From the human T2T-CHM13v2.0 reference genome, Homo sapiens: a stretch of 64,000 bases of DNA. The position numbers and the translations under genes are program-made. Below the pieces are notes generated by a model, which worked only from the letters and a program-made list of their open reading frames with translations, did not search any database and was not told the origin of the DNA. Positions within the stretch are counted from its first letter, which is position 1; each line of letters opens with the position of its first letter. Positions 15,063 to 36,345 of the stretch are shown here, piece by piece. The stretch is from contig CP086569.2 of the NCBI GenBank assembly GCA_009914755.4, positions 5,152,001 through 5,216,000 of the forward strand. The letters run 5' to 3'.

Positions 15063-18000
15063 TTGTTTTGTTTGTTAAAGGCAATTTTTTAAATAACCTG
15101 AGAAGGAAATTAAGAAATATTGATGTGCTTAGACTTTTGAAAAGCACTGTGCATATGTGAATGCATGTGCATGTGTGTGTGTATTCTTCCTACCATCAAG
15201 ATATCTTCTTTATGCCCTTCTTTCCCCTATTAGGTCTGAGCTCATATTTGTAAATGTATGTATCACAACATATTTTGCTGTTATTTGGATCAGAGAAAAA
15301 TCTGTTTTATAAAATGTACCACAAACTGACATGTCAAACTTGTTTTAAAAAATCAATTGCGGGGTGAGCAACTGTCTTTAATTTGAATTTATCCCATCTT
15401 TTATGACCAGTTTCCAACTTAGAGTTTACCCTCTTAACATCGAGTTACTTGTGTTATTTTCTCAAAGTGATGTGATTATTTTGCTTTTGCTTCATTACTG
15501 CAACAAAATTTAAATACCTTCATAAATAAGCAATTTTAGAGGAGCATGAAAACTAACAAAATGTAACAAACACACTGAAGAGATTTGATGATTTGCATTT
15601 TCATGAAGCTATTGAACAAAAAAAATATCCAGCAGCACTAATATACAGCAAATTCATCTTTCAACAATAGGGCTAACTTAATTCTTTGTGCCATATGTCT
15701 ATTAGGATTTTAAGCTGCTTGGTTGTCTGTGATCACTAAGTGAAGGTGAAGTCTAGATTAATAAAACATATTTCAAAGGCTGATGTCAAAACAGAAGCAA
15801 ATGTTCAGAGTGTGCTACTCTTTCTTTAGGTAAAATAAACAGCACCTGATTCTTCCTCTTTTCAGTATCACTTTTTGCAAAAATAAATAAATAAATAAAT
15901 CCTGTACTTATTTGTGACAATAACTTAATGTTCCATTATGTTTAATTTAACATTCTTTAAATTTAAACATTATTAGCTAATGGCAGTTTTCAAAGTACCA
16001 CCAGTTCTAACTCCTGACCCTTATGTCAGTTACTAATGAGACACTTGTGATTTACATTAACATTTGGAAACATGATCAAAATATTTTTTAAAAACAGATA
16101 ATTTTCCAGTAAGGAAATATTCTATATAATTGCCAGGTACAGTTTTATAGATTCTATGTGTTAATTACTTACTGAAGAATTGTCAAGGTGTAAGTGGAAA
16201 AGACAGAAAGGTATCATTTTGAAATTTAATAGGAACTTCAGAGAGCTAGAGACAACACTAGTCTTTTAAAATTGTAAAATGTGACCTACTGTATCTTGTA
16301 GGATGTAATCTTTTCAATTTGTATATCTTAAATAAACCATTGAATGCACTTCAGAAATCAGAACTTTTGGAAGGCTCATTGCATTTAACATTAGTTGAAC
16401 TCAGTATTGGACCTAGAGTCATTATACCTATTTGGGAATATTTTATTATGAATGAAGGTGCCCCAACACTACAGTTTATAGAGCTCTTAAGCACAAATCT
16501 CTTTTAGCAATATTTTTCCTTCAATGCCATGAGATTCATAGCTCTAATTTTAACAGTCCTATGATCCAACTTGTCTTCACTGTAAATAGAAGCAAAATTT
16601 TGTATTATGAAGGCTGTACCAAGCAATAATCAATTCTTATTAAATAGAAAATATGTGATTCCTTTATTCACACAAGCATATAATCAGAAAAAAATATTTT
16701 TACTGATTTTATTTTAATCCTTATAGTACCATGCAATTGTCTTAGTTTTTCTTCAGAACAGCATCACTCTAGTATGATCAAATTATCCACAGATAATTTC
16801 GTATCTGTGAAGCTCCCCCATCCCACGTTTTTTCATTATATTATACCATGGCCATCTCTGTGTTAATAATGTCATCACTAGATCATATGTATCATTTATC
16901 AAAAGTGAGCAGGAACACATCCTGAATGCAAAATCATTTTAGTAATAGCAACTAATTAAAGTGAATTAAAAGTGAACTGATTAAACTGTATAGTTAATGG
17001 ATGTAGTGGCTTGAAAATATAAAATTATATATATATATATCCAAAGACAATTCATCAATTTTGCCAAGTAAAATGAATATATTCTTGTTTCAGAATTAGT
17101 CTCTTATTTTTAAGATAATCCTATGACTTTTGAATGTTATAGAATTTAATTATTCAGCAGATAACAAATTGTAATCATGATTTCTCTGATCAATACAATG
17201 TATTTTTGATCTACAAAGAGGGTATATGAGCAATAAAAATCCCAGAAATGTTGCCCATAATGATTTCAAATGCCTTAGAATGATTAATATTATAAATTTA
17301 GAAAGATATTTTTGTGTAGATTTATTTTTGATTTTTACGAAAAATAATGATTTTTGAGAGTTTTTATTTCATAGTTTCACGGTAAGTTGTCTTGTTTAAT
17401 GGTCCTCTAATGAGAGTCAGGGTAAGAGATGTGATTAAATATAATATTGTGGCAAAAGGAGATGTCTATAGAATAAAAATTGTGAAATAATCATATTCTA
17501 AAATTGTTCTAATTAGGGTAGTCTGACATCATTAAAATTTCATTACTCTAATATGATCATATTAAAATGCCAAAAAAAGAGTCTATTATAAACATATTTA
17601 GAAAACTTAATCAGCATTCCCAGTTTTCTCTCATACACACATATAAATATATATGTTTCTGAAATTATCAAAGAACCATGTCTTAATCTGCTCAGGCTGC
17701 TAGAACAAAATGCTATTAACTAGGTGGCTTATAAACAACATAAATTTATTTCTCAGAGTTCTGGAGGCTAAGAAGTCCTAGATCAAATTGTTGGCAAATT
17801 CAGTGTCTGGTGAAGGCTCACTTCCTGGTTCATAGACAAGGAGGCATCTTTTCACCGTGTACTCACAGGGAAGAAAGGGTAAGAGATCTTTGAAGTCACT
17901 TATATAAGGGCACTAATCTGATTTATAAGGGATCTGCCCTCATGACCTAAGCACTTACCAAAGGCCAACTTCCAGATGCCATCACATTAGTGATTATGTT

Positions 18001-18109
18001 TTAACATATGAATTTTAGGGTGACACAAACATTCACTCTATGTTAGACCATGTGGCTTAAATAATCTGAATCTTACTTCGGACCTACTAAAACAGAACAG
18101 AATATTTGA

Positions 18110-19630
18110 ATTTTGAAACCCAGGAATTTGTGATGGCAGTGGCGGCTGTCTGGAGTGGCCACTGCCATGACACCAGCTGCAGTGGGGGAGGCTTGACCAG
18201 GGTTGCATGCTCCATGGAGCCTGTGGGAACCAGGAACAGGTGGGAGCCCCTCCTCCTTCTGAATTGGAGGGGTGACAGCCTCGCCTTCCCAGGTGCAGTT
18301 GCAGGGGCCCAGCTGGGACTGCTGCCCCAGGTATCCTGTGCTCTTGGGGATCCAGGAAGCCCTCCTGCCCCAGCAGGCTTGAAAGAGCCTGCACCTGCTG
18401 CTTGGCCTCTCAGCTCTCCAGCTGCCCACTCCAATTTTGGAGCAAAGTTGAGGCCAAGCCTGGGCACTGTGGCAACCTGGTGGGATGTGTGTGAGCTTTT
18501 GGCGGTCCTGACATGCCCATGGCTGCCTCAGCCCCCTCCAGACTTTGACCACCCACAAACAAGGGAGGGAAGCAGAGGGGGTGCTGAGGGCAGCTGGGCA
18601 TGGGCCTGAAGGTGTCCTTTGGCATGAACAGCCTGGGTGCCATAGATGTCATGATTGATAGTGGGTGCCATGGATGACATGATTGATAGCGTCAGGAGGC
18701 ATAGAGGCTTCTGCTCAGAAAAGGGCATGTCCCTGGTGAAGTCCCACCTTCCGGTCAGAGAAGGCCTGAAGCCTGGGGGCCCGTTGGCCAGTTCCTCAGA
18801 CCAGAGTGAGAATGCGTGCTTTTTCTGGCCTGCCTATGGCTGTCCATGGACCAATCAGCATGGACTTTCTCCCGTCTCAAGCCCATAAAAACTCCAGGAC
18901 TCAGTGAGAATTGGACAAACGACAGATGATCTAACTGCTGTTAGGAGCTACCCACTCCGTGTCTTCTGAGAGGTGCGCTTTCACTCAACAAAGCATCTCT
19001 TCACTTTGCTCACACTCCAATTGTCTGCATACCTCATTCTTCCTGGACACAGGACTCAGGACCCACCAAATGGCAGGGCTGAAAGAGCTGTAACACAAAC
19101 AGGGCTGAAACACCACCCCCCCACCCCAACTTGCCACGTTGGGGGTGATGAGGATAGAAGAGAGCATAAGAGAAGAGCTGTGCCCTTTGGGGAGCCTGGA
19201 CCTAGGAGCTCCCTGAGCCAGGGCTGTGACACCCTTTTTGGGGCTCTGTGGGTCCTGGCATCTCCAAGATTCCAGGTGCCACCATGTTCCCTGGTGCCCA
19301 ATTCACTTGCAGTACAGTTGGTTCAGCTGCAGCCTTGCAGGGATCCAGTGCCCACGCTGGCACCTGCAGCTGCCCACCTCACCACAGCCAGTGTACCTGG
19401 TTATGCGCAGTGGCCGGAACTTGTGCTTGCTCACTCACACACCCCTCTCCTCCCTGCATTTGACTTGCCTTTGGCAGGCATGGGTTCCGGGCTGGTAGTG
19501 AGACCTGAGTGCAGCCTGCCAAGCCGAGTGGGTGGAATAAGCCCAGTGGGCCCGAGCAAAACTCGAGCAAAGGCACCATCGGCCACAGAGGATTCTGTCT
19601 GGTGAAGCAATACCCCAAAGATCTTGTGAC
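18110..19630 (+). mobile_element. GC-rich, roughly 1.5 kb LTR-like block, probably a solitary ERV LTR; family unassigned
   Basis: The sequence shifts sharply to high GC. A CCAAT box (gaccaatcagcatgg, 18850) lies about 35 bp upstream of a TATA-like cataaaaa (18884), followed about 100 bp later by ctcaacaaagcatctcttcactttgctcac (18980-19010). This gives the U3-R-U5 layout typical of ERV LTRs. Overlapping ORFs on both strands are not credible genes. Confidence 0.4.
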
Positions 19631-24214: not shown

Positions 24215-25260
24215 TTTTTTTTTTAATTATACTTAAGTTTTGGGATACATGTGCAGAACGTGCAGGTTTTTTACATAAGTATACACATGCCATGGTGGTT
24301 TGCAGCATCCATCAACCCATCACCTACATTAGGTATTTCTCCTAATGCTATCTCTCCCCTAGCCCCACACCCTCCAACAGGCCCCAGTGTGTGATGTTTC
24401 CCTCCCTGTGTCCATATGTTCTTATTGTTCAACTCCCACTTAAGAGTGACAACATGCAGTGTTTGGTTTTCTGTTCCTGTGTTAGTTTGCTGAGAATGAT
24501 GGTTTCCAGCTTCATCCATGTCCCTGCAAAGGAAATGAACTCATCCTCTTTTATGGCTGCATAGTATTCCATGGAGTGTATGTGCTACATTTTCTTAATC
24601 CAGTCTATCATTGTTGGACATTTGGGTTGGTTCCAAGTCTTTGCTATTGTGAACAGTGCCGCAATAAACATACATGTGCATGAGTCTTTATAGTAGAATG
24701 ATTTATAATCCTTTGGGTATATACCCAGTAATGGGATGGCTGGGTCAAATGGTATTTCTGGTTCTAGACCCTTGAGGAATCGCCACACTGTCTTCCACAA
24801 TGGTTGAACTAATTTACACTCCCACCAACAGTGTAAAAGTGTTCCTATTTCTCCACATCCTCTCCAGCATCTGTTGTTTCCTGACATTTTAATGATCGCC
24901 ATTCTAATTGGTGTGAGATGATACCTCATTGTGGTTTTGATTTGCATTTCTCTAATGACCATTGATGATGAGCTTCTTTTCATGTTTGCTGGCTGCATAA
25001 ATGTCTTCTTTTGAGAAATGTCTCTTCATATCCTTTGCCCACTTTTTAATGGGGTTGTTTGTTTTTTTCTTGTAAATTTGTTTAAGTTCTTTGTAGATTC
25101 TGGGTATTAGTCCTTTGTCAGATGGATAGATTGCAAATATTTTCTCCCATTCTGTAGGTTGCCTGCTCACTCTGATGATAGTTTCTTTAAATGTTGTAAA
25201 TTTTTTATATATTATGAATTTCTACATAGATCCAACAAGCTATTGACAATGTTTTAGTTA
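24215..25260 (-). mobile_element. Young primate L1 (L1PA-like) 3' end: C-terminal ORF2 plus 3'UTR, 5'-truncated
   Basis: A poly-T at the left is followed by the reverse complement of the L1 3'UTR, ttaagttttgggatacatgtgcagaacgtgcaggtt. Minus-strand ORFs read [58 protein letters not shown] and [60 protein letters not shown]...FTIAKTWNQPKCPTMIDWIKKM. Confidence 0.85.
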
Positions 25261-26744: not shown

Positions 26745-28622
26745 CCCTGCCTTCTGAACTCCTCAATATTACTTAGTTCCAGCAAGCTTTTCTTTTATTC
26801 AGTTTATTTTCTGCTCATACTAATTCTGCTAAGAGTTACCTTAACCAACACCACCCACTACTCCCTCTGAGAGGCCCAAAGGAATCCTGTCTGGCTGTTA
26901 CACTCACATGTAGAAAATCAGCAGACTATTTCTCATTAGAAGAAGTAATTTTATGTTCAGAAACATATTCCATAATATATATTACATATTACATGCATTA
27001 GTCATTTTCTCCTATTTTATTGAGACTTTAATATAAAAAATAATGGCTAAAAACTAAAGAAGATTCAAGTGAGCTACTTAAATATTTTATGCATCTATTA
27101 TATTTTCATATATCTTCCAATAAGTTTGAAGTATGATATTCAAATCTTTTCATAGCTCCATCTGAAGAAATGGCTGACTGTTAGACCTGAATTTGTGAAA
27201 ATATATGCATTCTGTTATGAAAATGCCTAGGATGTAAATTCTTCTCATCTTTGATATATGCAAATCTCTTAAATAAATTATACCTAATTTGAAGCTTTCA
27301 TGCTGCCAGTAGTTTAGTGCTTTGGTTGATCTATTGTTACATAGCAAACCATCAGTAATCTTTGGGGACATAAAAATCAATAGTCCTTCTTAATTTTTAG
27401 GTCAGGAATTTAGGTAGTGTACAGCAGATATAGCTATTTCTACTCCACAATGACTGCTGCCTTAAGTAGGGGGTGCTCAAATGTCTGAAGATAGTTAGGA
27501 TGACTCCAATAAGGCCACTAGCTGGAATGTTCATAATGGATTCTTCATGTACATATCCGGCACCTGAACTTGAGTGGCTGGAACAGCTGGGCCTCTCTCG
27601 GCATTGTAGTCTCTTTTTATACAGTCTTTCCACGAAGCTAGCTTGAGCTTCCCCACAGTATGGCATGCTCCCAGTACTCAAACTACTTTCAATGCAGCTG
27701 TAATTTTCCATGGTGAGTTTTCCAAGGGTGCAAAGCAGAAGCTACAGGGTTTGATTACAGAGTCTGTGCAGATTCAATGTGGTCTCAGGCTACTTGAAAG
27801 TCTGAATATCAAGAGGTGATGTCCATTGGGGAGCCTATTTTTGGAGACTACTACATATAGCATAGCAATGCTGCAAACAAAAATGCTGCTACAAGATCTG
27901 GTGAAGATGTTACAAACTTCTTCTTTCGGAAACCAAATGCTTCATCTTTATCTTTTTATTTGTATATATATTTTTATATTCTGCTAGGAATACCATTTAT
28001 GATGATAACTATAATTTGTTTTCATAATTACCATTAACTGTTATCCATATTATGTAATTACTTTTTTCTTAGAAAGTAAAATCAATTTAAATAAATTCCA
28101 ATTCAAAATTTTGTCTCTAAGATTCTTCTAAAGGATGATGTACTTTTAGTTTTCTAAGCCTACATGATTGAATAAATTTGTGTTATTATTCACAGTTTCA
28201 GCTCACTAGCAACTTACAGATACAGCAAAAAAGTATGGTTATATTTATCCACATTTATTACTCAAAAAATAAGTTATTGCCAAATAATACCTAAATAAAT
28301 ACATGTTAAAATTATGGTTGGAATTTCCAGTTTGCTCAAATGTGCTATAAAGCTGACTGTCTCTTGCTTTAGAACAAGTTGACTTTCATTCTGCATCTGG
28401 CTGTGCCTTGTTTTGAAATATAATGGAAGCAACACTGCCTTCAGGTGAAGAAGGTTTGAACACAGAATTGTGTTATTCACAAAAGCCTGAAATTGTTCAC
28501 AACTCAAGATAATGTTAATGTGTCTTCACCAGATAGCCGAAATAATGCATTTTCTAAATTGCAGCATTAAGCAATGATTCAGATCATATCTGAAACCCTG
28601 TAATTTTCATTCTCCCTTTCAG

Positions 28623-28821
28623 TCCCAGCGGCGTGTCACATTTCACCTGCCAGAAGGCTCTCAGGAAAGCAGCAGTGATGGTGGACTGGGAGACCATGAT
28701 GCAGGCAGCCTTACCAGCACATCCCATGGCCTGCCCCTTGGCTATCCTCAGGAGGAGTACTTTGATCGTGCTACACCCAGCAATCGCACTGAAGGGGATG
28801 GCAACTCCGATCCTGAATCTA
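28623..28821 (+). CDS. Internal protein-coding exon (199 nt) of an unidentified host gene. Frame 1 reads [66 protein letters not shown]
   Basis: The acceptor is taattttcattctccctttcag|TCC with a strong polypyrimidine tract. The donor is AATCTA|gtaagtgat, a perfect GTAAGT. Two frames are open across the exon and frame 1 gives a plausible acidic, Ser-rich, low-complexity sequence. CpGs are retained inside it (cagcggcgtgtc, gatcgtgc, aatcgcac, ctccgatcc). The surrounding intron is AT-rich. The exon length (3n+1) implies a phase change. Confidence 0.6.
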
Positions 28822-31251
28822 GTAAGTGATACCTCTCTGGTTCCTCAATATAAACGGGCTTACTGTGTTTGCAACTCAAGCTATCATAGCCATAATAACA
28901 TGGGCTAATTTATTATGTTATTGTGAATAGTGACACATTTTTGAAAGGTAAACATACAGAATTAGATGGATGGCAAGTATAAGGCAGTTTATAATATTTT
29001 AAATGTATGATCATAACTACGCTGAATGAAATTTATTATAGTGACTTTGTTAAGGCATAGATAGAATTTTCCATTTATGTACACCTGTAATTTATTTGTA
29101 TATAAACAGCCAATTTATTTTATTTTATTCATTTATTTGTGAAGGTATAAATTTTTTCTTATATATAAAAATATTTCCTAGATTTTATTTTTATTTTTAT
29201 TAGAGATAAAAACCATTGACAGTTATTTTCTTTCTGAGGAAATAAGAGATCCTGACTCCAATGTAGGAGAGGGCATCTGAGGTTTTCAGCAATATACTGA
29301 AATCACACACCTGTGCCATGTTACTGTTTAGAAAGGTATTCACATTTGGTCTTCAGACAGAAGGCACAAAATCTGTGTTTTGCAAATTCCAAAGATGTTG
29401 AACTCTTTAAAAGGATCATAGAGTTGATATTAAATAAAATTTCATTAAATGTATTATCTTGAACGTGTAGCGAACAACCTTGCTGATTTATAATTTCAGG
29501 AAATACAAAATTTGATAAGATATATATTTCTCGGAAGAGTCTTGAAATTGCAAGAAGCTACAATTTGCTCCATTTATGTTATGTACATAAAAGTATGTAG
29601 ATACAAAAAAGCATACAATATATGTGAGAAAAAAGTCATAGCCATAAACCAATATGAAAAAAAATGGGCCAAATACCTGGCAAAAACATAAATAAGGTAA
29701 TATAAACTAGACATTTTGAAAGGTTATTTTGAGCATTATGGATTGCAGGGATGTATAATTCAAATAAAGCTTCTAGGCTTTAGAACAAAATAGCTTCCCT
29801 ATCATTGTATTTTAATCCTCTATTTTTGAAACTTCAAAAAATAGGGAAATGGATTGGCTAAACATTATGATATAATCTAAGGCTAAACATATGGAACCAA
29901 TGACAACATAACATCAACTTTTTCTCTCTACAGATGTAGATGCTATATATTATAGGTATTTTTAATGTAAAAATATTAGAGACTTTTGAGTCAGCAAGTT
30001 CAGACAGTCCTAAAAATCTACTATCTCCATTTTCAATTTTATACTTGGAATAAATGATCAACATTTGTTCTGAAGATAAAAAATTCCCCTATACCTTGTG
30101 TCACTAAACTATCTTTAATTTACTTTGTTTAGCACAGCAAAATGACTCCTGGTAGAAATACATAGTTGTGATTATATTTACTTGTGTAATGAACTAAGAG
30201 TTAATCTCTAATAAGAATATGATCATAAGTAACAAATACACATTAAGCAAGGGTGCCACTGATCTTCTTTCCTCCATAAATCATTGTTTTAGTTGTAGGT
30301 CTATCATGCCCTGTTAAATAAGAATATAGAAATGGGATAAGTATCATTTTTATAAACTAGAAAGAGTTGATTCATTTGTACATGATGTGTTACTAAGCCT
30401 CTTTCATAGAGGATTGCATAGCAACAATTAAAGAGTAAACTCAGAGTAAGCATCCACAGTGCACATCTCACCCTGAAATAAAATTCCAACTGAATGAGAC
30501 TCAAATGGAATACTGTTGATAATAGTAGGAGAATTGGTATGTGTCAGAAATAGTAAAACATTTAACATTAAATATAGCTTTATTAATCCCAATTATATTT
30601 AGAAATAAGTAGTTGTTTTAAAAAGTATTCAAATGCATAGTTCTTAACAGAAGCTGGTCTTGTTTATAGTTAAGGATATAAGTGCTAGCATCAATGTATT
30701 AGCTGACATACTTAGGGGCTTTTTTTAAAAAAGGGTGCTTTCTGTTAGGAGCTAAACATTTCTCTCTTCTAATTATATTTACACTATTATCTTGAACATT
30801 AAATATCTTGTTCATATTTACTCTACAGGATGAAGGACTCACAAAATTTGCATTAAAAACTTTAGTTGCTCAATCGATTTTATTTTAAAATCTAGATGTC
30901 TGTGGGCAATGATAATAGTAAAACAAATTGTATATTTTGCTGCTTATTATTTTAATAAACTTATGCAAAGGGTAGATATAATTAAAAATGAATGCCCATT
31001 TTCTACAAGTCTAACAATATTGTTAAGCGAATGTTTAAATGTTATTTTTTTACTATGAATAATACTAACAAACTGCTCTCCTACTAAATGTGAAACCTCC
31101 CCCTAAATCATGTTCCAAGAAAATTTTTGTTAGGAGTTTTGTTTTGGGACAGTCAGAGACCTTACTAAAAGTGCAAGAAGCACAATAATTTACTTGAAAT
31201 GAAGCTCCATTGTCTTAATGTGTCACGGTAGTGAAATGTTTAACATAGTAC

Positions 31252-31286: not shown

Positions 31287-34200
31287 GTTTTAATTAAAAA
31301 GAAAAAACATAGCTGGTTTAGAATTGGCCATAGCAAAGTAATCTCTTTAGGCTAATACTGATGATAAGGTATTTTGATTCTTCAAAAAGCAAAGCTATAG
31401 CTCTGAAATAGCACCCGATAATGGGTTTTATGATATGGAGCAGATGCCAATAAACTGTGCATTGTTTGTCAATAGCACCACTGATAGGAATGTAAAGTGT
31501 TAGAGGAAATAAATGCTGTCCTTAAGCAATGGAATTAATTTATGCAGTTCCCATTTCACATTTTGAAATGTATTACATCTTCAATCTGCTTTCTTTCTTG
31601 CTAGTGAATTGCCAAAATAGCACATAGTTCTGCAAATCCTTTGTAAATTCACAAAACAGGAATAAACATGACATTTATGAATAAGGGTATTCTGTAAAAT
31701 TTGCTAGAGGGATTTATTAATACTGCTTTAAAAATATAGTTCCCTGGTTGATAAAAATCTGCTGCTTAGGTGAAGAAATCACACAATTCATTCTCTTAAG
31801 TCTTTTGCCAAGACTATTAACTTTTCTTTTTAAAATAAAGAAAACAAACTCAAGCCAATTATTACTTTTTGAGGAGACAAAGTCAATAAAATATCCTGTC
31901 TCATTCCATCTGAAGACTTTGTAATTTTTAAATTTTATAATTGCAATCTCTTTACTGTGGCCATTGGACTAAGGGTCACTTAATGCCATTCTATACAGTT
32001 CTGTCTTCCTTGGATGACAGCTTATATTCTAGACCTTTCCTCCTACCATAGCCTCATCAGATTATTTACAATGAACCCTGCTCTTTGAAGCTAGTTAATT
32101 TGTTAAAAAGCAAAAACAAAATAGAAACCCAATTCAAAAACAGCACTATTGATTGCTGCTGGGTTACTGTGGATACTGGAACAGATAATGTCTGCATTTT
32201 CAAAGGATTTTCTTGAGACACATTCATGGAGACACATGTGGCCCTGGTAAAGAACAAGTTGTGAGTCTACTTTTGAGGATTTTACATATCCAGGTATAGT
32301 GTTAACTCAGAGATTTGAGGATAGTGAGATCCTCTTGGGACTACTGTAAACACATTAAACTATGTATGGCCCTATGCTCCTATCTACTTATTTTTAAGTA
32401 GTCTCAGGTAAAATATGATTTTTGAGGATATGATTTAAAAATGCTTTCCAATTTGTTTTCTAAATTTTTTTTCTGTTTTTATAATTCAGACTGAGTGCTG
32501 AGACATACAGAAATATTAGCAAATGTCTACACATTAAACTTCTGAGATTTTTTAATACTCTATGTTTATGAAGCCAGGGTTTTTATGTTTTGTCCTCAAA
32601 TAGAGAATGCATTGCTGCTATTTCACTACAGGTAAGTTGGATCTAAAAGGGTAACTACTAATATTTTTACATTTCTACTGATCTGCTGGCATATTATAAT
32701 TTTCCAGCTTCATTGGAAGAAATAAAATAGCCATAATTCTTTGGAAGATAAATGGTGAAATAGAGTATTGCTAAAGAGGCTCAAATCAGTCTTCAGCTTT
32801 CTAGTCATAAATCAGTACAATTGCAGAGAAAAATCCCCCTAAAATGAAGAGGAGAATGATTTAGTTTATATCAGTATTTTAATTTTCTTCAACTGAACAA
32901 GTTATGTCATCTGTATTTTTTAAAACCTCTTCATTGTATGTGATCATTTCACGCATGAAGTCACTCTATCTGAAAATGTTATAGCTGGTCTAGTGTCCAG
33001 CATTGAATCTTAAAGTAACAAAATACTTGAGTGAAATTTCTTCATCTTCCCCCAAAAAAGTTAATGCTTTTCCTCTTTTTGTATAACATAGTCATTTCTG
33101 TGATACAAAAGAAGAAAATATAGAGTTTCAAGAACATTTAGGGCTAAAAAATTATATGTTTAAAATAAAGATCAATATATGTTTTTATTAAAATGATGTC
33201 TGCTAGAGTTTATCTCATGTTAGCAAATCTGTTTGACATTCATTTTTATTTCAGTAGATCAGGTTTGCTTAGCACTCAAATACACTACTAATTAATTCAC
33301 AACAAGGAAGTAATTAATCTTTCCCTGGCAAGGCACTTTGATTGATCTTCTACCAGTAATCCAATAAATTGGTATAAAAAGTGGGAGACCAATTTGATTG
33401 ACTAGAATGAATTTCTACTCAGAGAAATGCCAGATTTTCTCCTGATCTGCTAAGAGTATTGACATGAATAACACTAGGGTAATTACTAGTAAGTGTTTGA
33501 ACATCTCATTATTTGAATATCTAATTCTAAACATAGACTACTGGTAAAATTAAAAAATCAAAACCAAAAACTGTGAAACGTTAAAAGAATAAGCTAGTAA
33601 TGGGTCATTAAAACTCAGCCTTTCATAATTAAAAACATTAGGAGTCAGTTGTCTAAAAGCAAAATAAAGCCATGGAAATATTTTTCCCTGGAAAATATTG
33701 ATATACTAGTACCTTGGGGAAAGCAGTGATCTAATTATTTATCTAAAAAATTCAAGGAGAAAATATGATTCAATTATAGAAAAAAGGAGTAGTATTGGTT
33801 AGTATATTTAAGAGAAGAGTAACACTTCTGATGTGGCAGAAAATCATCTGAGTCCACAGTTCAGCTAATATTACCCGTATAACTGTTAATTAAGTGTTTT
33901 TGTTTGCTGCTATATGCCCAGGAAAATTTGACTCCATAGGCTTTCTAATATTTCTTTAAAATGCATTTTTGACGAAAGTCACATATCAATTCATGTATTA
34001 CAATAAAAAGAAAAGTGAATGCATCATTTTGTTAATATTTTTACATGAAACAAATGGGAAATATATTCCACTTAACAAAAAGAAATTATGCTCCCTTTAA
34101 AGGTTAATTACATAGCAAGGCCAATTCTGACTCTGTAGGCTATGTATTTGTAAGATTATTTCTTAAAACTGTGCTCAGTAGCCTATATAATAGTGTCAGT

Positions 34201-36345
34201 CCATGGTAGAAAGGGGGGAGTAAAATAATTTAAATCAGCTCAGCAAGCTTAATGTCATGTGTTTTGAAAAATGAATCAATCAGTATTTCTAAGGAGTGAT
34301 GTTATCATTATCAATGATATCAGTTATGGTCTATTTCAAGAAAGAGGTTGAACTCCATGGCCCCGGGTTCTGGAAATATAGGACATATGCCTGCTCTATT
34401 TCATTGCCTTGCCAAGAGAAAACAATATATAGCTTTATGCTGCTACTGAAAATTTAAAAATTTCCTTAATATTTATTAATATTTTTAAGGTAACAATAAT
34501 ATCAAAGTCACTTTTATTCTTTTTCAAATGAAATATCATTGTAATAATTGATACTGTCAATGATTATTACCAGTTTATTTTAGTCCGTGATGTGTTATGT
34601 AAATAGTGTTAGAAAAGTATCTATATATAAATAGGTTATAAAGAATGGTTCCACCCAAGAGTTCAGCCATCTGCCATTGTTTTAGAGAGAATAAGGTATA
34701 CTTGGTAGTGACAGTAGTTTTTATAATAAATGTGCTTAGGCAGGTATAAACAGTGATCTGGTAGCAGATGCTCTGTGATGTATATTAATTTTACCATTTA
34801 AACTGACATGCTTTTCAAAAGTAAATCTTTCTCTATTGAAGCTTCTGAAAGTTTATAAATACATTATAATAAGAAAAATGGGTAAAACACGTCTTACGAT
34901 ACCATCCTATCATATTCAACTTCCCTATATAAGAGATGCAATCTCAATGTAGACCAATTGAAAAATGACTGCTAATTTGGAGTATATAGGCTTTGGGAAG
35001 GCAACAAAAGCTTTATGCTAGAGATAATCTTTAAACAATTATAGAGGTCATGAATTAAAATGAGAAGTATATCTTTAAAGTTGGAGACTTGAAGACATTT
35101 ACAGGATTTTATTTGGGTGACAGTCTCTAAGATGAGTGTATCTTTAATATCTTAAATATAATATGGATTAGATAGAGGTTGATCACTCAAAAGCAGGCCA
35201 CTATAAGTAAAGCAATCTCTTATCTTGTCTTTTCTGTTTGAAAGTGACAAGCACTAGGAGACTGGCACAAGCTGCCAGTTGAAAGCCAATGCCATAGGTC
35301 TGGAATGTCAATAAGCTTGAATAATCACCTAAAGTGGCAGAGAATAGGTGGCCTTCTCTTCACAATAAACCTTCTCTTGCTTCTAAATTTTATTAAGCTT
35401 CCTACACCAAATAATAAAGGTCATTTAACATTTGTGTTTCTATAATTTATGAGCCATGAGGCGATTCATTTTATGACAACATTCTTTCTTCTGCTTTTTA
35501 AAAAATCTTACTTCTCACTTTCCTTTGCCTATAAGACAGACTATTTGCCATTTGTTATTTTTTGTAGTTCTTTGAAAGTCAGTATAATCAGTCATTCAAG
35601 ATGTAGCATTTGGGTGACTTGGAATATTTAGTAGTGTTAGCCACACATCAACTTCTTATTTTAAAATGATTTATAAATTTTAATGAATGAGGAGTATTAT
35701 AGCAACATATTTTTAATCCCCATGACACTTTTAAAATTGGACAATAACTTGCAACTCTCATGATTGCTTTCATCAACAGAACATTCAACAACTGGTGAAT
35801 ATATCAAGGAATTCATTAAAAAATGAATAACTATAGACCATCTGTCTTACCATGATTTCTATGATTTTTTAATTTACATTTTATTGAATATTGAAGATGC
35901 CCAATAGAGAATAGAATAGAGATAACAGTGTTCGCTTAGCCAATTTTTTCTCTCTCTTAATCAATAATCTTAGAAATTGTTTTCCCAGTTCCACTAGGTA
36001 CATGGTCTTTATCTGGCATTAATCAATCTTATATTGGAAATGTTTGTATGTTATCTAAACAAACTTTTTCTGAATAGTGTATATGAAATAAGCCATTAAA
36101 AGTTTAGTTTTTTCTTAGAAAATTCTTCTCTTGCAATTTGTATAGACCTGAAAGGCTGGTAATTTTAAATATTATTTTGGGGTATCTAATTATACGATAA
36201 AAATATTTGAACATTGAATACAAATTTTTATTGCGGTAATTCTTTGTGTAATCACTATTCATGAAACCTTTTCAGCACAGACCATTGTAGATAATTTGTT
36301 TTAGGCAATCATCTTACGTATTACAGAACTCTAGTCCGTTTACTA

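What the first reader, a model, noticed from the sequence alone, without database searches (positions are those of the whole stretch)
28623..28821. Single well-formed coding exon of an unidentified host gene, isolated in repeat-rich intron-like DNA
This is the only place in 64 kb with the full signature of a vertebrate coding exon. It has a long polypyrimidine tract plus AG acceptor (ttcattctccctttcag|), a textbook donor (|gtaagt), an uninterrupted reading frame and CpGs retained inside a CpG-poor neighbourhood. The favoured frame gives [66 protein letters not shown]. This reads as an acidic, Ser/Gly-rich, disordered linker with an RRxT motif that fits a basophilic-kinase site. A second frame is also open, so the frame choice is inferred from composition only. 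The exon is 199 nt (3n+1), so it changes phase and skipping it would frameshift the transcript. I could not match it to a known protein from memory. Nearby AT-rich megabase-scale neural genes would be typical hosts.
Basis: seen in the sequence. Interest (0 to 1): 0.6.

Follow-up and report, generated by a model that had tools for sequence, protein, structure and literature searches.

The report
Known PCDH11X/Y exon with PP1-docking motif
The flagged segment is a real but already well-known coding exon of the brain cell-adhesion gene protocadherin-11 (PCDH11X, or its human Y-linked copy PCDH11Y); it encodes the conserved RRVTF site thought to dock protein phosphatase 1, so the finding is correct but ordinary.

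Summary
Window 28623-28821 (+) is a 199-nt open segment between a pyrimidine tract plus AG and a GTAAGT donor. It is a genuine coding exon, and the host gene can now be named.

- **Identity.** The frame-1 peptide matches 66/66 to human PCDH11X, human PCDH11Y, and chimpanzee and bonobo PCDH11X. Orangutan matches 65/66, Old World monkeys 58-61/66 and PCDH9 about 69%.
- **Borders.** Homology stops exactly at both exon borders in fish, birds, reptiles and mammals. AG and GTAAGT are conserved from primate to alligator.
- **Frame.** dN/dS is 0.11-0.41 in frame 1 and 1.9-8 in the other open frame.
- **Isoform use.** 115 of 121 full-length PCDH11X protein models contain the exon with the same junctions.
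- **Function.** The exon encodes conserved motif 3 (CM3) of the delta1-protocadherins. Its RRVTF is an RVxF-type PP1-alpha docking motif, found in 83 of 83 distinct orthologous and paralogous peptides. It lies in a tail segment for which AlphaFold2 predicts no secondary structure.
A basophilic-kinase site at RRxT is at best a secondary layer, as a possible phospho-switch on the motif.
- **Context.** No other PCDH11 exon lies in the 64 kb. At least 13 Alu elements mark the window as primate.
- **Open point.** The X and Y copies cannot be told apart with these tools.

Already known; low interest.

The parts
28604..28622 (+). 3' splice site: pyrimidine tract ttttcattctccctttc followed by AG (28621-28622)
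   Evidence: Read directly. The cag|TC(C/A/T) acceptor is conserved in six orthologous loci, including alligator, and in turtle. Birds and fish have tag|.
28623..28821 (+). Coding exon of PCDH11X/PCDH11Y. It is 199 nt, starts in phase 0 and ends one base into the next codon. It encodes 66 aa, SQRRVTF...GNSDPES, followed by the first base (A) of a Thr codon.
   Evidence: - 66/66 identity to human PCDH11Y residues 1044-1109, human PCDH11X X1 residues 1049-1114 and Pan PCDH11X.
- Homology ends at both borders in all vertebrate hits.
- dN/dS is 0.11-0.41 in this frame.
- The exon is present with the same junctions in 115 of 121 full-length models.
28629..28643 (+). Codons for RRVTF: the CM3 core, an RVxF-type PP1 docking motif. 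It also fits the R-R-x-T basophilic-kinase consensus.
   Evidence: - Q2, R3, V5, T6 and F7 are invariant in 17 aligned sequences from fish to primate.
- [RK]x(0,1)[VIL]{P}[FW] matches in 83 of 83 distinct exon peptides.
- Literature on CM3 and PP1-alpha.
28785..28820 (+). Codons for [12 protein letters not shown]: a second near-invariant block at the C-terminal end of the exon, with no assigned function.
   Evidence: R55, T56, E57, D59, G60, N61, S62, D63, P64 and S66 are invariant. The block is at least 98% conserved over 83 distinct peptides.
28822..28827 (+). 5' splice site, GTAAGT
   Evidence: Read directly. gtaagt is identical in all six orthologous loci, including alligator. Alignable conservation with alligator stops about 9 nt into this intron.
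28368..28622 (+). Amniote-conserved non-coding intronic element that abuts the acceptor. It is as conserved as the exon (about 74% identity to alligator). Its role is not established; it may regulate splicing or act as an enhancer.
   Evidence: - blastn block 28367-28830 against alligator.
- Multi-species alignments with bear, an unidentified mammal, alligator, turtle and two birds.
- Stops in all three frames.
- Not alignable in fish PCDH11X or in bird PCDH9.
- No convincing conserved RNA structure.

Best explanation
Window 28623-28821 (+) is the cytoplasmic-tail exon of protocadherin-11 that carries conserved motif 3 (CM3) of the delta1-protocadherins. The gene is PCDH11X of Homo or Pan, or the human-specific Y copy PCDH11Y.

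**Splicing.** The exon is spliced into the long isoforms only. Upstream it joins one of three alternative exon ends: ...HPQPQ|, the 30-nt microexon ...KVAGK|, or ...VHTRP|. Downstream it joins the last large exon at |TFIPGLKK, or at an alternative acceptor |TAEIT. It starts in phase 0 and ends in phase 1.

**Encoded peptide.** It encodes 66 residues of acidic, Ser/Gly-rich tail. The N-terminal RRVTF is an RVxF short linear motif that docks the catalytic subunit of protein phosphatase 1 (PP1-alpha) at the adhesion molecule's cytoplasmic face.

**Consequence (inferred).** Including the exon, as in the long isoforms, gives the protein the PP1-docking motif. Short isoforms that end upstream lack the motif.

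**Possible switch (inferred).** The invariant Thr inside RVTF lies in an R-R-x-T context. Phosphorylation there could switch PP1 binding off.

**Shown here:** exon identity, borders, frame, purifying selection, motif invariance, and absence of predicted secondary structure.

**Taken from the literature or inferred:** PP1 binding, which was shown directly for the paralogue PCDH7c and is described as putative or reported for PCDH11X/Y; isoform-dependent PP1 recruitment; and the phospho-switch.
For: **Identity**
- The 66-aa peptide hits PCDH11X-named proteins at 85-91% identity and PCDH9 at about 69%.
- Exact 66/66 matches: Homo PCDH11Y (KAI3998550.1), Homo PCDH11X (XP_016884905.1), Pan troglodytes and Pan paniscus PCDH11X. 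Pongo is 65/66, siamang 63/66, Old World monkeys 58-61/66.
- The host protein has cadherin repeats plus the Pfam Protocadherin domain PF08374.

**Exon structure**
- Homology stops exactly at both borders.
- AG and GTAAGT are conserved in 7 loci.
- Junction census over 115 full-length models.
- The terminal A completes the Thr codon of ...DPES|T.

**Selection**
- dN/dS is 0.11-0.41 in frame 1, and 31 of 48 differences from alligator fall at third codon positions.

**Locus**
- Six collinear conserved blocks with the alligator PCDH11X locus.
- At least 13 Alu elements.

**Motif**
- RVxF regex matches 83 of 83 distinct peptides; the RRVTFHLP and [12 protein letters not shown] blocks are near-invariant.
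- AlphaFold2 gives no secondary structure and pTM 0.16, with the highest pLDDT over the motif.

**Function, from the literature**
- CM3 contains the PP1-alpha binding site and defines the delta1-protocadherins (PMC3698369; PMC7339444).
- Longer PCDH11X/Y variants interact with PP1-alpha via CM3 (PMC3752934).
- PCDH7c binds and inhibits PP1-alpha via RRVTF.
- RV[S/T]F is a basophilic-kinase target whose phosphorylation lowers PP1 affinity (PMC5874294).
Against: - No transcript data for this genome could be consulted. Use of the two junctions rests on orthologous and human protein models.
- Direct PP1 binding is documented for PCDH7c. For PCDH11X/Y the review literature calls the site 'putative'.
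- Two PCDH7 studies found that isoforms without RVTF still associate with PP1 or myosin phosphatase and still rescue phenotypes. The motif may therefore not be the only contact, or even the main one.
- An RVxF regex match alone is expected by chance in roughly one of seven 66-aa peptides (my estimate). The weight comes from conservation, not from the match.
- Pfam has no model for this segment, and no solved structure covers it.
Confidence: 0.9

Rival explanations
1. Same exon, but RRVT acts mainly as a basophilic-kinase phospho-acceptor (PKA, Aurora or similar), rather than as a PP1 dock.
For: - R-R-x-T is present.
- The Thr (T6) is invariant although the x position of RVxF tolerates any residue except Pro.
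- RV[S/T]F motifs are known Aurora B consensus sites (PMC5874294).
- RVTF-less PCDH7 isoforms still associate with PP1 complexes.
Against: - V5 and F7 are irrelevant to a basophilic-kinase consensus, yet they are just as invariant. That fits RVxF.
- The literature assigns CM3 to PP1-alpha binding.
- The two readings are compatible, as a phospho-switch on a docking motif, so this is more an addition than a rival.
Confidence: 0.2
2. Not a real exon: a chance open segment between splice-like signals in intronic DNA, or an exonised repeat.
For: Splice-signal strength alone is not unique. About 22 comparable AG...GT open segments exist in the window, several of them in Alu elements. A second frame is open.
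Against: - Protein homology at E = 1e-30 and lower, from fish to human.
- dN/dS well below 1 in one frame only.
- Borders shared by 115 full-length models.
- No Alu overlap and no second copy in the window.
Confidence: 0.01
3. An exon of a paralogue (PCDH9, PCDH7 or PCDH1), or a dead duplicated fragment, rather than functional PCDH11X/Y.
For: PCDH9 has a homologous exon with the same borders at 67-70% identity.
Against: - 66/66 to PCDH11X/Y, against about 69% to PCDH9.
- It carries the PCDH11-type residues [10 protein letters not shown], not the PCDH9-type EADGNSDPNS.
- The flanking intronic element and five downstream blocks are collinear with the alligator PCDH11X locus.
- The frame and both splice sites are intact.
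Confidence: 0.01

Closest known systems
Human PCDH11X / PCDH11Y long-isoform cytoplasmic exon carrying CM3 (Xq21.3 / Yp11.2)
   Same: - The 66-aa translation is identical to human PCDH11X and PCDH11Y, and to chimpanzee and bonobo PCDH11X.
- Same junctions to the neighbouring exons.
- Same kind of setting: a very large, AT-rich, repeat-filled intron.
   Different: Nothing detectable. The tools cannot say whether the window is the X copy, the human Y copy or a Pan X copy, because the exon's protein sequence is the same in all of them.
CM3 / RRVTF of PCDH7c (BH-protocadherin-c), the experimentally studied PP1-alpha binder
   Same: Same RRVTF motif, in the same kind of long-isoform-only cytoplasmic segment of a delta1-protocadherin.
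   Different: - It is a paralogue, not the same gene.
- Binding and inhibition of PP1-alpha were shown for PCDH7c, not tested here for PCDH11.
- Newer PCDH7 work shows RVTF-independent association as well.
PCDH9 CM3 exon
   Same: Homologous exon with the same start and end. It shares [13 protein letters not shown] and GNSDP.
   Different: - 67-70% identity.
- One extra residue (EPVGSG).
- EADGNSDPNS instead of [10 protein letters not shown].
- The upstream intronic element of PCDH11X is not alignable in bird PCDH9.
RV[S/T]F docking motifs of KNL1 and Repo-Man (phospho-regulated PP1 recruitment)
   Same: Basic residues, then V, then S/T, then F. This fits both the RVxF consensus and a basophilic-kinase consensus.
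   Different: Those are mitotic scaffold proteins regulated by Aurora B. No phosphorylation of the protocadherin motif is documented in what I read. This is a resemblance in mechanism, not family membership.

Membership tests
PCDH11X/PCDH11Y gene (orthology of this exon) | Translation identical or near-identical to named PCDH11X/Y proteins, and clearly closer to them than to paralogues | tested here: met
   66/66 to Homo PCDH11X, Homo PCDH11Y and Pan PCDH11X. Pongo is 65/66. PCDH9 is about 69%.
PCDH11X/PCDH11Y gene (orthology of this exon) | Exon borders coincide with the junctions used in annotated mRNA and protein models | tested here: met
   115 of 121 full-length models contain the segment. 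The upstream ends are ...HPQPQ|...AGK| or ...VHTRP|. The downstream starts are |TFIPG or |TAEIT.
PCDH11X/PCDH11Y gene (orthology of this exon) | Collinear non-coding conservation with PCDH11X loci of other species | tested here: met
   Six collinear blocks against the alligator locus, and collinear blocks against bear and fox around the exon.
PCDH11X/PCDH11Y gene (orthology of this exon) | Spliced transcripts of this very genome use both junctions; chromosomal assignment to X or Y | not testable with these tools
   No human or ape genome or RNA-seq resource is available here.
delta1-protocadherin conserved motif 3 (CM3) | Host protein has seven extracellular cadherin repeats, a transmembrane segment and a protocadherin-type cytoplasmic domain | tested here: met
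   For the vole orthologue P0048, Pfam finds Cadherin (6 stretches plus Cadherin_2) and Protocadherin PF08374. These parts lie outside the window.
delta1-protocadherin conserved motif 3 (CM3) | Conserved RRVTF-containing block in the distal cytoplasmic tail, shared among delta1 paralogues | tested here: met
   Invariant in PCDH11X and PCDH9 sequences from fish to primates. PCDH7 and PCDH1 sequences were not retrieved here; their RRVTF is taken.
RVxF-type PP1 docking motif | Sequence fits [RK]-x(0,1)-[VIL]-{P}-[FW] | tested here: met
   RRVTF, in 83 of 83 distinct homologous peptides. The consensus is as given in PMC5874294.
RVxF-type PP1 docking motif | Motif lies in an accessible, intrinsically disordered region | tested here: met
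   AlphaFold2 on the 17-sequence alignment gives no secondary structure, pTM 0.16 and mean pLDDT 62.5. This is prediction only.
RVxF-type PP1 docking motif | Physical binding of PP1 catalytic subunit that is lost on mutation of V and F | not testable with these tools
   Literature only. Binding was shown for PCDH7c. It is stated for the longer PCDH11X/Y variants in PMC3752934 and called 'putative' in PMC7339444.
Basophilic-kinase phosphosite (R-R-x-S/T) | Consensus present and the acceptor residue conserved | tested here: met
   R3-R4-V5-T6. T6 is invariant and R4 is at least 90% conserved.
Basophilic-kinase phosphosite (R-R-x-S/T) | Observed phosphorylation of the Thr | not tested
   No phosphoproteome resource was consulted. 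A full-text search for the peptide strings found nothing.

The most novel reading that the evidence does not exclude
The exon itself is known. The least-explained feature is the roughly 250-nt intronic element that abuts its acceptor (28368-28622).

- It is as conserved from primates to birds and alligator as the coding sequence.
- It is not alignable in fish PCDH11X or in bird PCDH9.
- It contains a 72-nt exon-like unit (28373-28444). This has a conserved TTTAG| acceptor and CAG|GTGAAG donor, and stops in all frames.

The element could be an amniote-specific regulator that decides whether the PP1-docking exon is included. It could act as an intronic splicing enhancer or silencer, or as a stop-carrying 'poison' cassette that yields CM3-less protein or transcripts degraded by nonsense-mediated decay.
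Probability: 0.25. Interest if true: 0.25.

Novelty: already known. Interest (0 to 1): 0.05.

Why it matters
As a discovery it does not matter: this exon is already in the annotated human PCDH11X and PCDH11Y protein models. The result has three practical uses.

- **Anchoring the window.** It places the window in the PCDH11X/Y locus, the Xq21.3/Yp11.2 hominin X-Y homology block. That explains the AT-rich, Alu- and L1-filled surroundings and the scattered deeply conserved non-coding blocks.
- **Correcting the motif.** It replaces the kinase-site reading with the RVxF/CM3 PP1-docking reading.
- **Validating the scan.** It shows that the first stage can pick a true isolated exon out of 64 kb of intron from sequence alone.

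Tried and rejected
- **Pfam on both open frames.** No family. The segment lies outside PF08374 in the full-length protein.
- **PDB sequence search.** Only a chance hit at E = 0.028.
- **Rfam over the whole window.** Nothing.
- **Other PCDH11 exons in the window.**
  - Exact peptide strings recalled from memory: none.
  - tblastn with full-length vole PCDH11X: only this exon.
  - The 30-nt microexon: found in bear 38 kb upstream of the exon, but not in the window.
  - Tails of the short isoforms (TDSRT..., VGIQVSNTTF): not in the window.
- **Frame 2 as the coding frame.** Rejected, with dN/dS 1.9-8.
- **Splice-signal uniqueness.** Rejected; many comparable sites exist.
- **The 72-nt upstream unit as a conserved terminating cassette.** Weak.
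  - The donor GT is AT in turtle.
  - No retrieved protein contains its translation.
  - Conservation continues at the same level past its 'donor'.
- **Conserved RNA structure in the upstream element.** RNAalifold gives -9.9 kcal/mol over 275 columns with an unfavourable covariation term.
- **Full-text search for the peptide strings.** No paper.
- **Pfam on six ORFs of at least 120 aa elsewhere in the window.** Nothing.
- **Look-ups that failed.**
  - P0005 is not on record.
  - P0027 returned no DNA because the gene range is too long.
- **X versus Y assignment.** Not possible. The exon peptide is identical in both, and the contig look-ups were exhausted before the human entries surfaced.

Full report
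**1. The observation**

The sequence at 28623-28821 is exactly as described.
- A 17-nt pyrimidine-rich tract ends in cag|.
- The open segment is 199 nt.
- The donor is |gtaagt.
- Frame 1 gives [66 protein letters not shown].
- Frame 2 is also open. Frame 3 has five stops.

The exon is an island of higher GC and CpG.
- GC is 0.56 and there are 5 CpGs, o/e 0.32.
- The flanks have GC about 0.3-0.37 and CpG o/e about 0.1.

The splice signals alone are not unique.
- The last exon base is A, not G.
- I scanned both strands with a rough matrix that I wrote from memory, used only to rank sites within this window.
- About 22 other open AG...GT segments score within 3 bits on both sites, several of them inside Alu elements.

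**2. What it is**

The frame-1 peptide has no Pfam family, but it finds clear homologues.
- 47 proteins in the 90%-clustered collection and 70 in the 50%-clustered one match, down to E = 1e-30 and lower.
- They are named protocadherin-11 X-linked at 85-91% identity, or protocadherin-9 at about 69%.

The one full-length representative is bank vole PCDH11X isoform X5 (P0048, 1340 aa).
- It has cadherin repeats and the Pfam Protocadherin domain.
- It aligns to the window peptide at residues 1040-1105 and continues ...DPES|TFIPGLKK. This matches the extra A at 28821 as the first base of a Thr codon.

Two further searches with full-length queries brought in the primate proteins. The window peptide compares as follows:

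| Protein | Identity |
|---|---|
| Human PCDH11Y (KAI3998550.1, residues 1044-1109) | 66/66 |
| Human PCDH11X (XP_016884905.1, residues 1049-1114) | 66/66 |
| Chimpanzee and bonobo PCDH11X | 66/66 |
| Orangutan | 65/66 |
| Siamang | 63/66 |
| Old World monkeys | 58-61/66 |

At least 13 full-length Alu elements confirm a primate genome. The window is therefore Homo or Pan PCDH11X, or human PCDH11Y. The exon cannot separate these.

**3. Evidence that it is a functional exon with these borders**

- In an alignment of 17 hits from fish to primate, similarity begins at S1 and ends at S66. Outside those limits the gene-caller translations diverge at once.
- In genomic DNA of bear, arctic fox, alligator and three unidentified mammals, the acceptor AG and the donor GTAAGT are conserved.
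- Nei-Gojobori estimates against four orthologues give dN/dS of 0.11-0.41 in frame 1, 1.9-8 in frame 2 and 0.6-1.5 in frame 3.
- Against alligator, 31 of 48 differences fall at third codon positions.
- Of 121 full-length PCDH11X models in hand, 115 contain the exon.
  - It is joined upstream to ...HPQPQ|, to a 30-nt microexon ...K(K/V)AGK|, or to ...VHTRP|.
  - It is joined downstream to |TFIPG... or to an alternative acceptor |TAEIT....
- Annotated short isoforms end before it (...VHTRPTDSRT......VGIQVSNTTF). Those tails are not encoded in the window.
- The segment is single-copy in the window. It overlaps no Alu.

**4. Surroundings**

- tblastn with the full-length protein finds no other PCDH11 exon in the 64 kb.
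- In bear, the preceding 27-codon exon lies 94 kb upstream and the microexon 38 kb upstream. An isolated exon in this window is therefore expected.
- The window is collinear with the alligator PCDH11X locus through six conserved blocks.
  - One block covers the exon plus about 256 nt of upstream intron.
  - The other five lie downstream, and the four of usable length (at least 167 nt) show no codon periodicity.

**5. How it most likely works**

The literature identifies the RRVTF block as conserved motif 3 (CM3).
- CM3 is the feature that distinguishes delta1- from delta2-protocadherins. It contains a PP1-alpha binding site (PMC3698369; PMC7339444).
- Longer PCDH11X/Y variants are stated to interact with PP1-alpha through CM3 (PMC3752934).
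- For the paralogue PCDH7c, binding and inhibition of PP1-alpha through RRVTF was shown by Yoshida et al. 1999. I cite this through bioRxiv 10.1101/2021.09.21.460794 and PMC7225324.

The data here fit that reading.
- RRVTF fits the RVxF consensus [K/R][K/R][V/I]{P}[F/W] (PMC5874294) in 83 of 83 distinct homologous peptides.
- AlphaFold2 predicts no secondary structure for the segment (pTM 0.16). Its highest confidence is over the motif, which is typical of a short linear motif in a disordered tail.
- The inferred mechanism is that isoforms including this exon can recruit or inhibit PP1 at sites of homophilic adhesion, while short isoforms cannot do so through this motif.
- Because the exon is 3n+1, simply skipping it would frameshift the last exon. 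That agrees with CM3-less isoforms being made by alternative terminal exons instead.

Two cautions apply.
- RVTF-less PCDH7 isoforms still associate with PP1 complexes.
- For PCDH11 the binding is partly extrapolated from paralogues.

**6.

- R-R-x-T is indeed a basophilic-kinase consensus. The Thr is invariant although RVxF does not require it.
- Phosphorylation of S/T at the x position by Aurora B weakens PP1 binding in KNL1 and Repo-Man.
- A phospho-switch on the dock is therefore a reasonable but untested addition. It does not replace the PP1-docking reading, because V5 and F7 are equally invariant.
- A second near-invariant block, [12 protein letters not shown] at the exon's end, has no assigned function.

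**7. Things outside the brief**

The 250 nt of intron immediately upstream of the acceptor are as conserved across amniotes as the exon itself.
- They are not alignable in fish PCDH11X or in bird PCDH9.
- They include a 72-nt exon-like unit with stops in all frames.
- I do not consider that unit established as an exon, for three reasons.
  - The donor is lost in turtle.
  - No known protein carries its translation.
  - Conservation runs on past the unit.
- No conserved RNA fold is evident either.

**8. Verdict**

The finding is correct and well observed. It describes a known, annotated exon of PCDH11X/Y, the CM3 or PP1-docking exon. Novelty: already known. Interest: low.

Noticed in passing
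window 28368-28622: The intron directly upstream of the exon is about as conserved as the coding sequence across amniotes: primate, bear, an unidentified mammal, alligator, turtle and birds, with about 74% identity to alligator. It has stops in all frames. It is not alignable in fish PCDH11X or in bird PCDH9. On the donor side, conservation stops after 9 nt.
   Followed up: partly
window 28373-28444: A 72-nt exon-like unit lies inside that element, between the acceptor ctgtctcttgctttag| and the donor CAG|GTGAAG.
- Both sites are conserved in primate, bear, an unidentified mammal, alligator and birds. The donor is AT in turtle.
- In phase 0 it reads NKLTFILHLAVPCFEI* (alligator HKVSFILHPGL*).
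- No retrieved protein contains this tail.
- It could be a terminating or 'poison' cassette, or nothing.
   Followed up: partly
window 31427-31610, 33281-33365, 34577-34861, 35010-35589, 42540-42706: Five further blocks are 73-78% identical to, and collinear with, the alligator PCDH11X intron. The largest is 580 nt. They are AT-rich, with no long ORFs, and the four of usable length show no codon periodicity. They look like deeply conserved non-coding elements of the kind found around neurodevelopmental genes.
   Followed up: partly
window 52755-53279: A long (GGA)n purine-rich microsatellite of about 176 units at 77% matches, followed by a short (CAG)-type repeat at 53309-53348. It causes the strong GC skew of the 52-54 kb bin and the spurious long poly-Pro, poly-Gly and poly-Glu ORFs there.
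   Followed up: no
window ~18100-19600: A GC-rich (0.5-0.63) but CpG-depleted (o/e 0.17) block of 1.5 kb sits in an otherwise 30% GC intron.
- It has ORFs of 126-210 aa on both strands without Pfam hits.
- It has no collinear counterpart in bear or fox.
- By eye it looks like an old LTR or retroelement fragment.
- A 12-nt direct repeat, ATTAACTAGGTG, lies at 17715 and 19648.
   Followed up: partly
The ORF at 24585-24998 looks, from memory, like the C-terminal part of L1 ORF2, but Pfam gave no hit. Several Alu copies supply the best-scoring decoy 'exons' in the splice-signal scan.
   Followed up: partly
L010:30355-30549 (arctic fox) and L001:104412-104606 (black bear): The arctic fox copy of this exon is unusually diverged: 67% identity, RRVTF changed to RHVTF, and many replacements in the middle. 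Bear is 85% identical. Both carnivores lack one codon, and both end the exon in T instead of A. This may reflect relaxed constraint in canids, or it may be an assembly or paralogy issue.
   Followed up: no
proteins P0010-P0012 (birds): Several bird entries named 'PCDH9 protein, partial' or 'Protocadherin-9' score with the PCDH11X group (72-75% identity to the window peptide, against 67-70% for mammalian PCDH9). The one placed in the alignment, P0011, carries the PCDH11-type signature [10 protein letters not shown] without the extra Val. They look mis-named. True bird PCDH9 (P0029, L014) has EADGNSDPNS.
   Followed up: no
L001:66220-66249 (bear); not in the window: A 30-nt microexon, WKSEGKKAEK in bear, is flanked by cag| and |gtaaga. 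It corresponds to RKSEGKVAGK in human and Pan models and WRSEGRKTGK in vole. It is inserted immediately before this exon in a subset of isoforms.
   Followed up: yes
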